Assembly: GCA_036524475.1 (NCBI GenBank) | Contig: DATDCF010000115.1 | Span: forward strand, 1-33,189 | From: Acidimicrobiia bacterium | GTDB taxonomy: Bacteria; Actinomycetota; Acidimicrobiia; Spongiisociales; ZC4RG35 | DNA length: 33,189 nt | Direction: 5' to 3' | Part shown: positions 6,166 through 6,646 of the stretch, one piece after another | Layout: each line of letters opens with the position of its first letter | How positions within the stretch are numbered: position 1 is the stretch's first letter | The notes under the pieces: generated by a model | Seen by the model: the letters and a program-made list of their open reading frames with translations, nothing else | The model's database searches: none | Told to the model about the DNA's origin: nothing | Program-made: the position numbers and the translations under genes

Positions 6166-6502
6166 CAGACTGGCGACGGCCAAGCGCCACTCGGGCATGG
6201 GCTTCGAGCCCTTCCGGCCGGGCGAGAGCGATCACGTCTTGACGTATCGGTGCCGCATCGTCGAGTCGAAGCCACGTCTGAGGTCGTAGAAATGTCGAGA
6301 CCGATAATCCCGCACGGAACCTTGCACTGCCTCCGGTTGGCAGGACGTGGTTAGGGCCAATCCCATAATCAGCGAAAGCTTCGGCAGATCGCTGTCCGAG
6401 GAATATGTGTCGAGAGAGTACCTTGACGGGTTGCAGTTCGCCCGATAGGTTCTCTCCAACATGTTTGGTGCCAACTCGATTCGAATGATGTGTACGGTCT
6501 CC
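6155..6502 (-). pseudogene. hisD: C-terminal relic of histidinol dehydrogenase (about 115 codons, no start codon, N-terminal ~3/4 missing)
   Basis: The minus-strand frame reads ...[77 protein letters not shown]...*. The GxNHVLPTxGxARF, GLSVxxFL and EGLxAHA blocks are HisD hallmarks. The frame is closed upstream by TAG (6505-6503). There is no ATG/GTG/TTG that would give more than 27 aa. Confidence 0.75.
6423..6451 (+). promoter_or_regulatory. putative promoter for the metY-metX leader
   Basis: TTGACG (6423-6428), 17-nt spacer, TAGGTT (6446-6451). The -35 module TTGACGGGT is identical to that of the divergent thrA promoter. Confidence 0.45.
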
Positions 6503-6529
6503 CTAGAGCCGTGCGGACGAGTCGTGTAA
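6461..6529 (+). CDS. candidate leaderless Met/Cys leader peptide MFGANSIRMMCTVSLEPCGRVV (22 aa)
   Basis: ATG 6461 lies 10 nt after the -10 box and has no SD. Codons AUG AUG UGU occupy 6485-6493. The ORF contains the antiterminator segment CCGTGCGGA (6509-6517). TAA is at 6527-6529. Confidence 0.45.
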   Translation: MFGANSIRMMCTVSLEPCGRVV

Positions 6530-6553
6530 AACCAAACCAAAACCAAACGAGAG

Positions 6554-6587
6554 GATCCGCACCGGCGACGGTCGCGGATCTTTTTTT
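6554..6587 (+). terminator. strong intrinsic terminator 60 nt upstream of metY (attenuator terminator)
   Basis: GATCCGCACCG-GCGA-CGGTCGCGGATC forms 11 bp with one bulged C and a GNRA-type loop, followed by TTTTTTT (6581-6587). Confidence 0.8.
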
Positions 6588-6646
6588 ATTACAGATAGCG
6601 ACTGTTCCGGAAGGTTATCTCTCCTTCTCAGAGGAGAACAGCCGCC

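What the first reader, a model, noticed from the sequence alone, without database searches (positions are those of the whole stretch)
6423..6646. Leaderless Met-Met-Cys leader ORF with built-in antiterminator and strong terminator upstream of metY-metX
On the plus strand, TTGACG-17-TAGGTT (6423-6451) is followed 10 nt later by an ATG with no SD at 6461. This ATG opens a 22-codon ORF, MFGANSIRMMCTVSLEPCGRVV, with AUG AUG UGU at 6485-6493 and a stop at 6527-6529.

Codons 17-19 of this ORF (CCGUGCGGA, 6509-6517) can pair with UCCGCAC(C)GG (6556-6565). That pairing is 7 contiguous bp plus 2 more after a bulge. The target is the 5' arm of a very good intrinsic terminator (6554-6580, GNRA loop, U7 at 6581-6587) that sits 60 nt before the metY ATG.

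The geometry fits attenuation. A ribosome paused at the Met/Cys codons ends near 6504, so the antiterminator is free. A ribosome at the stop codon covers 6512-6540, so the antiterminator is blocked and the terminator is free.

The regulated genes make homocysteine from homoserine, so Met/Cys codons are the expected sensor. Cysteine-responsive leaderless sORF attenuators have been reported in mycobacteria. I am not aware of a Met-codon attenuator for metY/metX, a niche usually filled by SAM riboswitches or T-boxes.

Caveat: there are only three regulatory codons.
Basis: partly seen in the sequence, partly recalled or inferred. Interest (0 to 1): 0.8.

Follow-up and report, generated by a model that had tools for sequence, protein, structure and literature searches.

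The report
Met/Cys leader-peptide attenuator before metY
A 22-codon mini-gene containing Met-Met-Cys, followed by a transcription stop signal, sits in front of the methionine-synthesis genes metY-metX and is conserved in every relative examined, so it very probably acts as a ribosome-read sensor of methionine/cysteine supply, an amino-acid specificity I could not find described for this textbook mechanism.

Summary
Rfam has no riboswitch or T-box there.

All 10 nearest relatives picked by MetY protein identity alone (82-95%), one GTDB locus and 10 metagenome loci carry the same element directly upstream of metY, although their upstream genes differ. In all of them the sORF has exactly 22 codons with no indel. 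Cys11 and AUG10 are (nearly) invariant, while codons 2-8 vary freely.

Three mutually exclusive helices are kept. One relative changed regions 2, 3 and 4 together.

The divergent thrA-like gene in the same window has its own Thr/Ile leader attenuator.

This is therefore a classical 1:2/2:3/3:4 leader-peptide transcription attenuator with a new specificity (Met/Cys, metYX) and a near-leaderless start. Met/Cys-rich sORFs upstream of metY recur in several phyla. There is no experimental proof. I call it a new variant of a known kind.

The parts
6423..6428 (+). -35 hexamer TTGACG
   Evidence: TTGAC is invariant in all 21 aligned leaders.
6446..6451 (+). -10 hexamer TAGGTT (TAnnnT type)
   Evidence: T, A and the final T are invariant in 21 of 21 leaders. 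The hexamer lies 7-11 nt upstream of the start codon in all of them.
6461..6529 (+). Leader sORF of 22 codons plus stop, MFGANSIRMMCTVSLEPCGRVV*. It has no SD and starts 9 nt after the -10.
   Evidence: The length is exactly 22 codons with no indel in 21 of 21 homologues. Codons 2-8 vary equally at all three codon positions.
6485..6493 (+). Putative sensor codons AUG AUG UGU (codons 9-11)
   Evidence: Cys11 is invariant. Codon 10 is AUG in 20 of 21 leaders. Codon 9 is AUG in 19 of 21 (CUG and UGU in the other two). Clade B and three other leaders have a fourth codon, AUG12.
6491..6501 (+). Region 1, the 5' strand of the 1:2 anti-antiterminator hairpin. It includes the Cys codon.
   Evidence: It appears in the MFE fold and is predicted independently by RNAalifold. 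89.5% of cells are paired, and 7 pairs change on one side only and stay paired.
6506..6517 (+). Region 2 (GAGCCGUGCGGA, codons 16-19). It pairs with either region 1 or region 3.
   Evidence: It is nearly invariant at the nucleotide level, third codon positions included.
6530..6553 (+). A/C-rich, U-free spacer between the stop codon and the terminator
   Evidence: A/C-rich in the window-like clade (no U in five of its eleven leaders, 1-3 in the rest) and A/G/C-rich, U-poor in clade B. Length is 21-28 nt with indels, in contrast to the sORF.
6554..6566 (+). Region 3, the terminator 5' arm. It is also the 3' strand of the 2:3 antiterminator.
   Evidence: The CCGCACCGG core is conserved. L099 carries C->U here, matched by changes in regions 2 and 4.
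6569..6580 (+). Region 4, the terminator 3' arm
   Evidence: Terminator hairpin is -20.7 kcal/mol. 87% of cells are paired, with a CG<->UA swap between clades.
6581..6587 (+). U7 tract of the intrinsic terminator
   Evidence: A T-rich run follows the hairpin in all homologues.
6647..7966 (+). metY (O-acetylhomoserine sulfhydrylase, PF01053)
   Evidence: Pfam E = 1.1e-137. Homologues are named OAH sulfhydrylase.
7963..9057 (+). metX-like homoserine O-acetyltransferase (alpha/beta hydrolase). It overlaps the metY stop by 4 nt.
   Evidence: Pfam PF00561. The same gene pair is present in all relatives.

Best explanation
This is a ribosome-mediated (leader-peptide) transcription attenuator of the metY-metX operon.

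Proposed mechanism:
- Transcription starts at or a few nt before the ATG at 6461, so the 22-codon sORF is translated as a leaderless or nearly leaderless message.
- When Met-tRNA and Cys-tRNA are plentiful, the ribosome runs to the stop codon at 6527-6529 and covers region 2 (6506-6517). If it has already left, region 2 is held in the 1:2 hairpin instead. Either way region 3 is free to pair with region 4, the terminator forms, and RNA polymerase stops at the U7 tract (6581-6587).
- When charged tRNA-Met or tRNA-Cys is scarce, the ribosome stalls on AUG AUG UGU (6485-6493). Its footprint masks region 1 (6491-6501). Region 2 then pairs with region 3 as soon as region 3 is made, which pre-empts the terminator, and transcription reads through into metY-metX.

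Shown here: the sequence elements, their conservation, the mutually exclusive pairings, and the absence of any known riboswitch.

Inferred: the TSS, translation of the sORF, stalling, and which of the two amino acids is the physiological signal.
For: 1. Anatomy in the window. The MFE fold contains the 1:2 hairpin plus the terminator (-55.8 kcal/mol, z = -5.8).

2. Unbiased conservation. The 10 relatives fetched purely by MetY identity (95-82%) all carry the element about 103-117 nt upstream of metY. Their upstream genes are unrelated to each other: hisG, a formyltransferase, argR, a luciferase-like gene, lysA-like genes, a methylase, deoC and an MFS gene. L001 from the GTDB scan carries it too. 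All 10 hits of a leader DNA pattern in metagenomes also lie directly upstream of metY.

3. Signature of a translated but non-functional peptide. The sORF has exactly 22 codons with no indel, while the spacer that follows has many indels. Start and stop codons are conserved. Codons 2-8 vary equally at codon positions 1, 2 and 3. AUG10 and UGY11 are invariant or nearly so, although AUG10 lies outside every predicted helix.

4. Structures.
- The 2:3 helix is paired in 91% of cells, 3:4 in 87% and 1:2 in 89.5%, against 20-50% when the partner is slid by 1-3 columns.
- RNAalifold recovers 1:2 and 3:4 independently.
- L099 has G->A in region 2, C->U in region 3 and G->A in region 4, which keeps both alternative pairings.
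- A CG<->UA swap distinguishes the two clades in the terminator.
- In all 21 leaders, 2:3 is the MFE of the nascent RNA once region 1 is masked (-16 to -25 kcal/mol).

5. Promoter. TTGAC and TA...T are invariant, and the start codon follows the -10 by 7-11 nt. In clade B a GTG lies exactly 7 nt after TACTTT.

6. No Rfam family explains the terminator.

7. The same genome uses this mechanism elsewhere. A Thr/Ile leader peptide plus terminator precedes the divergent thrA-like gene.

8. Met/Cys-rich sORFs recur upstream of metY in other phyla. 27 of 80 loci have at least 5 Met/Cys in an 8-codon window, against 0 of 80 on the reverse complement. About nine of them have a strong terminator 55-60 nt after the stop. 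The covariance model built from this family weakly hits five of them at the right place and strand.
Against: - There are no experimental data of any kind. All relatives are MAGs or metagenome contigs.
- Covariation is thin because the element is highly conserved. There are only two independent double- or triple-sided events. The column-shuffle control is not exceeded for the 2:3 and 1:2 helices.
- 10 of the 21 sequences were retrieved with a pattern that fixed parts of the sORF and region 2, so those columns are biased.
- There are only 3-4 sensor codons. Codon 9 is Leu in L096 and Cys in L084, and codon 10 is Ile in L098.
- The invariant Cys11 codon is also part of helix 1:2, so its conservation could be structural.
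- A second invariant Cys codon (Cys18) lies inside region 2, where a stall would favour termination.
- Met starvation also limits initiator tRNA charging. That would reduce sORF initiation and favour termination.
- The TSS is only inferred. In the window-like clade the ATG is 8-11 nt after the -10, so a 1-4 nt 5' UTR is possible.
Confidence: 0.8

Rival explanations
1. The element is a translation-dependent attenuator that is not specific for Met or Cys. The sORF and the three helices work as described, but the output reports general translation capacity or leaderless-initiation efficiency. On this view the Met/Cys codons are conserved for RNA-pairing or other reasons.
For: UGY11 is part of helix 1:2. 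There are only 3-4 candidate sensor codons, and positions 9 and 10 are not strictly Met. The Cys18 codon is dictated by region 2.
Against: AUG10 is kept in 20 of 21 leaders and AUG9 in 19 of 21, yet neither lies in a predicted helix. The regulated genes make homocysteine. Independent, non-homologous leaders upstream of metY in other phyla are far richer in alternating Met/Cys codons, for example MRMTMCMTMAMCMC and CMAMCMCM. That is hard to explain without codon-specific sensing.
Confidence: 0.08
2. The element is an unknown metabolite- or protein-binding riboregulator, for example a new SAM- or homocysteine-sensing RNA. It uses the same terminator/antiterminator switch, and the ORF is incidental.
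For: Other Acidimicrobiia and several other phyla control metY with SAM-I riboswitches. Region 2 and region 3 are conserved at the nucleotide level.
Against: Nothing in Rfam 15 matches, even at E <= 10. The only conserved structure upstream of the terminator is a 9-10 bp hairpin, which is too simple for a known aptamer type. The strict conservation of a 22-codon frame, a start codon abutting the promoter and a stop codon, with indels only outside the ORF, is what translation predicts and not what an aptamer predicts.
Confidence: 0.06
3. The sORF or short transcript is an independent gene (a small protein or sRNA with its own terminator), and metY has its own promoter downstream of 6587.
For: The short terminated transcript would be a stable, structured RNA of about 125 nt. 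Attenuator-derived sRNAs and leader peptides with trans functions are known (S. meliloti rnTrpL/peTrpL, PMC6614838, PMC7298713; listed). A gene caller annotated the sORF once (L097).
Against: No conserved promoter-like motif lies in the 59 nt between the U tract and metY, whereas the upstream TTGAC/TAnnnT is invariant. The element is always glued to metY at a constant distance while the upstream genes change. The peptide is not conserved in its N-terminal half, and its conserved C-terminal half is explained by RNA pairing. A trans role in addition to attenuation is not excluded.
Confidence: 0.05
4. The features are a chance coincidence of an ORF, a complementarity and a terminator in a long intergenic region that contains pseudogene debris.
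For: The region does carry a hisD fragment on the other strand. A 7-bp complement alone occurs in 3% of shuffles.
Against: The whole unit is conserved in 21 of 21 homologous loci with different flanks. The Pfam-supported hisD homology stops at about 6409, before the -35.
Confidence: 0.01

Closest known systems
Classical leader-peptide transcription attenuators of amino-acid operons (E. coli trpL, thrL, hisL, pheL, leuL, ilvL; actinobacterial trp and ilvB leaders, PMC1262725, PMC13236596)
   Same: - A short ORF carries codons for the pathway's product.
- Three mutually exclusive helices are present: 1:2, 2:3 antiterminator and 3:4 intrinsic terminator with a U tract.
- The sensor codons sit just 5' of and inside region 1.
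- The stop codon is placed so that a terminating ribosome covers region 2.
- The number of sensor codons (3-4) is comparable to trpL, which has two Trp codons (textbook knowledge).
   Different: - The amino-acid specificity is Met plus Cys, and the target is metY-metX. Neither is on the classical list, and I found neither in the held literature or in Rfam 15.
- The sORF has no SD and starts 7-11 nt after the -10, so it is leaderless or nearly so.
- There is no sequence similarity to the Rfam leader families.
Polycysteine leaderless sORF attenuators of mycobacteria (Canestrari et al. 2020, bioRxiv 10.1101/834739 / Mol Microbiol 114:93)
   Same: The phylum is Actinomycetota. A leaderless sORF comes first on the transcript. 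Cys codons act as the sensor. The regulated genes belong to sulfur amino-acid metabolism.
   Different: The mycobacterial elements act on translation by sequestering the downstream SD in a very stable duplex, and no intrinsic terminator is involved. They carry runs of consecutive Cys codons and no Met codons. Here there is one sensor Cys preceded by two Met codons and a canonical terminator/antiterminator switch.
uORFC-8-2 motif upstream of cysS in Rhodobacterales (PMC8632094)
   Same: It is a predicted ribosome-mediated attenuator in which two tandem Cys codons lie in the first of two stems, followed by a terminator with a U run.
   Different: It occurs in a different taxon (Alphaproteobacteria) and upstream of a different gene (the Cys-tRNA synthetase gene). 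It has no Met codons and is not leaderless. There is no sequence relationship.
SAM-I (S-box) riboswitch upstream of metY
   Same: It occupies the same regulatory position and has the same output (an intrinsic terminator before metY) in other Acidimicrobiia and other phyla: L008, L010, L012, L014, L035, L052, L078.
   Different: The sensor is a SAM aptamer of about 100 nt and not a translated sORF. The window has no SAM aptamer. In some loci both devices occur in tandem.

Membership tests
Leader-peptide (ribosome-mediated) transcription attenuator | Short ORF in the 5' leader enriched in codons for the regulated amino acid(s) | tested here: met
   The 22-codon sORF has AUG AUG UGU at codons 9-11. 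P is about 2.7e-4 by chance, and the codons are conserved in homologues.
Leader-peptide (ribosome-mediated) transcription attenuator | Intrinsic terminator between the sORF and the first structural gene | tested here: met
   The hairpin is 11 bp at -20.7 kcal/mol with a U7 tract at 6554-6587, 59 nt before metY. It is conserved in 21 of 21 leaders.
Leader-peptide (ribosome-mediated) transcription attenuator | Antiterminator helix that uses the terminator's 5' arm and a segment inside or next to the sORF | tested here: met
   6508-6517 pairs with 6556-6566 (10 bp with one bulge). 91% of cells are paired across 21 sequences, and there is a compensatory change in L099. It is the MFE of the nascent RNA when region 1 is masked.
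Leader-peptide (ribosome-mediated) transcription attenuator | Anti-antiterminator (1:2) helix that is overlapped by a ribosome stalled at the sensor codons | tested here: met
   6491-6501 pairs with 6506-6515 and begins at the Cys codon. It is predicted by RNAfold and RNAalifold, and 89.5% of cells are paired. The footprint argument is inference.
Leader-peptide (ribosome-mediated) transcription attenuator | The sORF is translated, and readthrough responds to charging of the cognate tRNA | not testable with these tools
   This needs Ribo-seq or fusions and starvation experiments. Only indirect support exists: the frame and length are conserved and there are no indels in the ORF.
Mycobacterial polycysteine leaderless sORF attenuators | Leaderless start (TSS = first base of the start codon) | tested here: inconclusive
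   There is no SD. The start codon is 9 nt after the -10 in the window and 7 nt after it in clade B. The TSS has not been mapped.
Mycobacterial polycysteine leaderless sORF attenuators | Tract of consecutive Cys codons | tested here: not met
   There is a single Cys codon at the sensor position, preceded by two Met codons.
Mycobacterial polycysteine leaderless sORF attenuators | Translational control by SD sequestration, with no intrinsic terminator | tested here: not met
   A canonical intrinsic terminator is present and conserved. A weak anti-SD hairpin before metY exists but does not involve the sORF.
SAM riboswitches, T-box, and other Rfam cis-regulators | Match to the family covariance model | tested here: not met
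   There is no hit at gathering score in the window apart from a tRNA. At E <= 10 on 5900-6750, the only match in the leader is a 21.7-bit hit of ctRNA_p42d to the terminator hairpin.
Rfam leader families (Thr_leader, Leu_leader, His_leader, Trp_leader and others) | Match to the family covariance model at the metY leader | tested here: not met
   There are no hits at 6423-6590. The weak Leu_leader hits (21 and 17.5 bits) fall on the thrA-side terminator at about 6000-6100.

The most novel reading that the evidence does not exclude
The window's element may be the minimal member of a large, multi-phylum and so far undescribed class of Met/Cys-codon leader-peptide attenuators that govern the direct-sulfhydrylation gene metY.

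- Candidate members occur in Acidimicrobiia-like Actinomycetota, Gammaproteobacteria such as Wenzhouxiangella, Thermoanaerobaculia, Eisenbacteria and Ignavibacteria. Poly-Cys forms occur in Bacteroidota.
- Several members share a CCCGCAnCGGC...GCGGG terminator core.
- Some members are wired in tandem with SAM-I riboswitches. metY would then be gated by two inputs: SAM, and charged tRNA-Met/tRNA-Cys.
Probability: 0.5. Interest if true: 0.78.

Novelty: new variant of a known kind. Interest (0 to 1): 0.66.

Why it matters
Ribosome-mediated attenuation is the textbook way bacteria read amino-acid supply through tRNA charging. Methionine is conspicuously absent from the classical list (Trp, His, Phe, Leu, Thr, Ile/Val). 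Methionine genes are thought to be controlled by SAM riboswitches, Met-T-boxes or protein regulators.

A conserved Met-Met-Cys leader in front of metY-metX would add a missing specificity. It would show that direct sulfhydrylation is tuned to charged tRNA-Met and tRNA-Cys and not, or not only, to SAM.

It raises a mechanistic question that can be tested directly: how does a Met-sensing leader work when initiation of the leader itself needs Met-tRNA(i)?

It also gives a compact, leaderless, three-helix switch from an uncultured actinobacterial lineage. The recurrence of Met/Cys-rich sORFs upstream of metY in many phyla, sometimes next to SAM riboswitches, suggests the theme is widespread and has been overlooked.

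Tried and rejected
- Rfam at gathering score on the whole window, and at E <= 10 on 5900-6750, finds no riboswitch, T-box or leader family at the site.
- The simple promoter/terminator scanner reported neither the leader promoter (the -10 TAGGTT is too far from TATAAT) nor the bulged terminator. It is therefore uninformative here.
- An exact look-up of the window's MetY in the assembly index found nothing. Relatives had to be reached through a homology search.
- I asked whether the sORF is merely antisense debris of the hisD fragment. The Pfam-supported homology ends at about 6409, upstream of the -35, and relatives without hisD carry the same leader. I rejected this idea.
- I asked whether the 104-aa minus-strand ORF 6232-6546 or the 126-aa plus-strand ORF 6490-6870 are genes. 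Neither has a Pfam hit. The first is an out-of-frame reading of the hisD fragment.
- I looked for a conserved structure between the terminator and metY. RNAalifold finds none common to all sequences. A 'region 5' complementary to the terminator 5' arm is strong in many relatives but absent in the window.
- Eight literature searches for a Met- or Met/Cys-codon leader of metY returned nothing relevant. Subscription-only papers are not covered, for example Lyubetsky et al. 2014 on Cys-tract leader peptides in Actinobacteria, cited in PMC4833913.
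Full report
**1. What is in the sequence**

Reading 6200-6800 directly confirms every coordinate in the finding.
- TTGACG is at 6423-6428, followed by 17 nt and then TAGGTT at 6446-6451.
- Nine nt without a purine-rich Shine-Dalgarno follow, then ATG at 6461.
- The 22-codon ORF is MFGANSIRMMCTVSLEPCGRVV, with its stop at 6527-6529. AUG AUG UGU is at 6485-6493.
- A hairpin spans 6554-6564 / 6569-6580 (11 bp, C6573 bulged, GCGA loop) and is followed by T7 at 6581-6587.
- The metY ATG is at 6647.
- CCGUGCGGA (6509-6517) is complementary to UCCGCAC(C)GG (6556-6565). G6508-C6566 adds a tenth pair.

Pfam identifies 6647-7966 as a Cys/Met-metabolism PLP enzyme (E = 1.1e-137). 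Its homologues are named O-acetylhomoserine sulfhydrylase. The overlapping 7963-9057 ORF is an alpha/beta hydrolase of the MetX type.

In the window alone the features are already unlikely to be chance.
- The leader folds with z = -5.8.
- Three consecutive Met/Cys codons in 21 codons have P about 2.7e-4 at this genome's usage.
- A 7-bp match to the terminator arm occurs in 3% of shuffles.

**2.

The minimum-free-energy fold contains a hairpin in which UGUACGG-CUC (6491-6501, beginning with the Cys codon) pairs with GAG-CCGUGCG (6506-6515). Region 2 can therefore pair with either region 1 or region 3, and region 3 with either region 2 or region 4. That is the complete classical 1:2 / 2:3 / 3:4 attenuator topology.

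The 679-bp gap between the divergent genes holds two other things.
- A C-terminal fragment of histidinol dehydrogenase lies on the minus strand (Pfam PF00815, profile positions 331-406 of 411, E = 1.6e-20, about 6409-6188 with its stop at 6157-6155). It ends just before the -35.
- Also on the minus strand, a sORF MCTGITTTTFGMWQGFAVH (6115-6056) is followed by a strong terminator (6028-6009). It sits upstream of an 839-aa aspartokinase-homoserine dehydrogenase. This is a Thr/Ile leader attenuator, so the organism demonstrably carries this kind of device.

**3. No known RNA family explains it**

Rfam 15 at gathering threshold finds only a tRNA in the whole window. A permissive search (E <= 10) of 5900-6750 gives only a 21.7-bit match of a plasmid ctRNA model to the terminator hairpin, plus weak Leu_leader matches on the thrA-side terminator. 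There is no SAM riboswitch, T-box or other riboswitch.

**4. Relatives**

MetY homologues up to 95% identical exist. Those that carry names are Acidimicrobiia MAGs.

I fetched the contigs of ten homologues chosen only by protein identity and contig length.
- The first four are 95, 94, 90 and 90% identical: L081-L084.
- The other five are 82-86% identical: L095-L099.
- L001, at 80%, came from the GTDB scan.

Every one carries the same unit 103-117 nt upstream of metY. The gene on the other side differs from locus to locus: hisG, a formyltransferase, argR, a luciferase-like gene, lysA-like genes, a DNA methylase, deoC and an MFS transporter. The unit therefore travels with metY and not with its upstream neighbour.

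A metagenome scan with a degenerate pattern taken from the sORF gave 10 hits, and all lie directly upstream of metY.

The 21 leaders fall into two clades.
- Clade A is window-like. It has an ATG start 8-11 nt after a TAnnnT -10.
- Clade B is L001-like. It has a GTG start exactly 7 nt after TACTTT, with an ATG 8 nt after it in L090. That is the spacing expected for a leaderless mRNA.

**5. Conservation pattern**

- TTGAC and the T, A and final T of the -10 are invariant.
- The sORF has exactly 22 codons in all 21 sequences, with no indel between start and stop. The spacer after the stop varies from 21 to 28 nt.
- The peptides are:
  - MFGANSIRMMCTVSLEPCGRVV (window)
  - MFGTNSTRMMCAVSQEPCGRFV
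  - MFGTKSTRMMCACSQEPCVRVV
  - MFGQNTTLMMCADSQEPCAPVV
  - MFAAHTIGCMCMAHNEPCGTDV
  - MFALDTSRMMCAAPQEPCGRDV
  - MLTANASKLMCTALQEPCGRDA
  - MFENFAFAMMCSAPQEPCGRDV
  - MKVVPIARMICMACLEPCDIDA
  - MSVVVTREMMCMAMTQPCSPHA
  - V(R/K)NVTSTRMMCMA..EPCG.VV in clade B
- Codons 2-8 vary at all three codon positions alike, so the peptide as such is not under selection.
- Codons 16-19 are frozen at the nucleotide level, third positions included. That is the signature of an RNA constraint, because they form region 2.
- Codon 10 (AUG in 20 of 21) and codon 9 (AUG in 19 of 21; the others are CUG and UGU) are conserved although they lie outside every predicted helix. This is what a sensor-codon role predicts.
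- Cys11 is invariant but is also the first triplet of region 1.

**6. Structures across the family**

I counted pairs on alignment A1.
- Terminator: 87% of cells are paired, with a CG<->UA exchange between clades.
- Antiterminator 2:3: 91% paired.
- Hairpin 1:2: 89.5% paired. Seven pairs change on one side only (G-C/G-U, A-U/G-U) and stay paired.
- Sliding the 3' partner by 1-3 columns drops pairing to 20-50% in all three cases.

RNAalifold, run without any hint, returns 1:2 and 3:4.

The most telling sequence is L099. Region 2 reads CCGUGCAG instead of CCGUGCGG, region 3 reads CUGCAC instead of CCGCAC, and region 4 reads GCAG instead of GCGG. One position has changed in all three strands, so both alternative helices survive. 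MAFFT shifts the L099 3' arm by one column, so I read that pair directly instead of taking it from the table.

Energies in all 21 leaders are -11 to -17 kcal/mol for 1:2, -16 to -25 for 2:3 and -13.5 to -21 for 3:4. With region 1 masked, the nascent RNA up to region 3 folds into 2:3. Without masking, it folds into 1:2 and leaves region 3 free.

Some caveats apply.
- The element is so conserved that there are few independent compensatory events.
- The column-shuffle control is not exceeded for 2:3 and 1:2.
- Ten sequences were retrieved with a pattern that fixes parts of the sORF.

**7. Mechanism (inference from points 1-6 and textbook attenuation)**

A ribosome stalled with codon 9, 10 or 11 in its A site should protect up to roughly 6500-6506. 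That covers region 1 and leaves 6509-6517 free to capture region 3 as it emerges. The terminator cannot then form, and RNA polymerase continues into metY-metX.

A ribosome that reaches the stop codon covers about 6512-6540 and blocks region 2. If it has already left, 1:2 forms. Either way 3:4 forms and transcription ends at 6581-6587.

No conserved promoter-like motif lies in the 59 nt between the U tract and metY. metY expression therefore probably depends on readthrough.

Three to four sensor codons are enough in principle, since the E. coli trp leader has two (textbook knowledge).

Open points:
- It is not known whether Met, Cys or both are sensed.
- The invariant Cys18 codon lies inside region 2.
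- Met limitation also affects initiator-tRNA charging and hence initiation on the leader.

**8. Wider context**

In 80 metY loci from GTDB representative genomes, 27 have an upstream sORF with at least 5 Met/Cys in an 8-codon window. None of 80 does on the reverse complement.

Examples:
- MRMTMCMTMAMCMC in Eisenbacteria (L011)
- CMAMCMCM in a gammaproteobacterium (L024)
- EMCMCMC in Wenzhouxiangella (L079)
- MAMCLSCMMMC in Ignavibacteria (L012)
- many poly-Cys peptides in Bacteroidota

About nine of the 27 have a strong intrinsic terminator 55-60 nt after the sORF stop, which is the window's geometry.

A covariance model built from the 21 leaders finds L001 strongly. It also weakly finds L002, L011, L079, L024 and L018 (E 0.002-0.13 over 0.7 Mb), all at the right place and strand. 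Their terminators share a CCCGCAnCGGC...GCGGG core.

SAM-I riboswitches occupy the same position in other loci, including two Acidimicrobiia (L008, L010). In several loci they stand in tandem with a Met/Cys sORF. I did not analyse these further.

**9. Comparison with what is known**

The element works like, and passes the computable membership tests for, a classical leader-peptide transcription attenuator.

It is not a member of the mycobacterial polycysteine leaderless sORF class. Those sORFs have Cys runs and act translationally through SD sequestration without a terminator.

It resembles the predicted cysS uORFC-8-2 motif only in principle.

The 2005 survey of Actinobacteria states that no RNA element was found for methionine operons.

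Eight full-text searches found no description of a Met- or Met/Cys-codon leader for metY, and Rfam 15 has no such family. The library lacks most subscription papers, so prior description cannot be excluded.

**10. Verdict**

- My confidence that this is a ribosome-mediated attenuator of metYX is about 0.8. I am less confident about which amino acid is sensed.
- It is a new variant of a known kind: a textbook mechanism with a new Met/Cys specificity, a new target operon and a leaderless or near-leaderless start.
- Interest is about 0.66. It would be higher if the multi-phylum class and the tandem arrangement with SAM riboswitches hold up.

Noticed in passing
window 6115-6009, minus strand (sORF 6115-6056, terminator 6028-6009); gene 5967-3448 (-): A second attenuator is transcribed divergently. 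The sORF MCTGITTTTFGMWQGFAVH* (5 Thr, 1 Ile) is followed by an 8-bp GC-rich hairpin plus T8, upstream of an 839-aa aspartokinase-homoserine dehydrogenase. GGGAUUCG inside the sORF can pair with CGAAUCCC at the 5' foot of the terminator. The fold has z = -4.1. Rfam gives only a weak Leu_leader match (21 bits).
   Followed up: partly
window about 6409-6155, minus strand: A C-terminal fragment of histidinol dehydrogenase is present (…[29 protein letters not shown]…EGLEAHARV…; Pfam PF00815 positions 331-406 of 411, E = 1.6e-20). It has no N-terminal 330 residues, so it is a pseudogene remnant wedged between the two leaders. This suggests a rearrangement at this spot. The closest relative, L081, has hisG upstream instead.
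   Followed up: partly
window 6620-6637 (+); same position in L001, L081-L099: UCUCC (6620-6624) can pair with GGAGA (6633-6637), which overlaps the metY Shine-Dalgarno GAGGAG. The SD is predicted to be partly or fully base-paired in all 20 relatives folded, in most of them by a comparable local anti-SD hairpin. This might be a second, translational layer. I did not test it against shuffles.
   Followed up: partly
L001, L086-L094, L082, L084, L095, L096: 10-40 nt after the terminator U tract: A 'region 5' (for example GAGCCGGUCGG) is strongly complementary to the terminator 5' arm (duplex z = -3 to -6 against shuffles). It is a third potential partner for region 3, downstream of the terminator. 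It is absent in the window, L081, L085, L083, L098 and L099 (window z = -0.4). Its function is unknown.
   Followed up: partly
L011, L024, L079, L018, L002, L012, L035, L052, L078 and many Bacteroidota loci (L036-L077), 80-390 nt upstream of metY: Met/Cys-rich or poly-Cys sORFs (MRMTMCMTMAMCMC, CMAMCMCM, MCCCCCFC, CCCCCCC and others) occur in 27 of 80 metY loci from many phyla, against 0 of 80 in the reverse-complement control. About nine of them have a strong terminator 55-60 nt after the stop. Most Bacteroidota examples show no obvious terminator.
   Followed up: partly
L012 3754-3879, L052 3751-3876, L035 1985-2113, L078 3784-3908, L008 3758-3840, L010 3577-3665: SAM-I riboswitches upstream of metY stand in tandem with a Met/Cys-rich sORF. 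In L012, L052, L035 and L078 the sORF comes first (followed by its own terminator in L012 and L052). In the Acidimicrobiia L008 and L010 the riboswitch comes first. This may be two-input control.
   Followed up: no
window 21114-21186, minus strand: A tRNA gene (Rfam RF00005, 68 bits) is the only Rfam gathering-level hit in the window.
   Followed up: no
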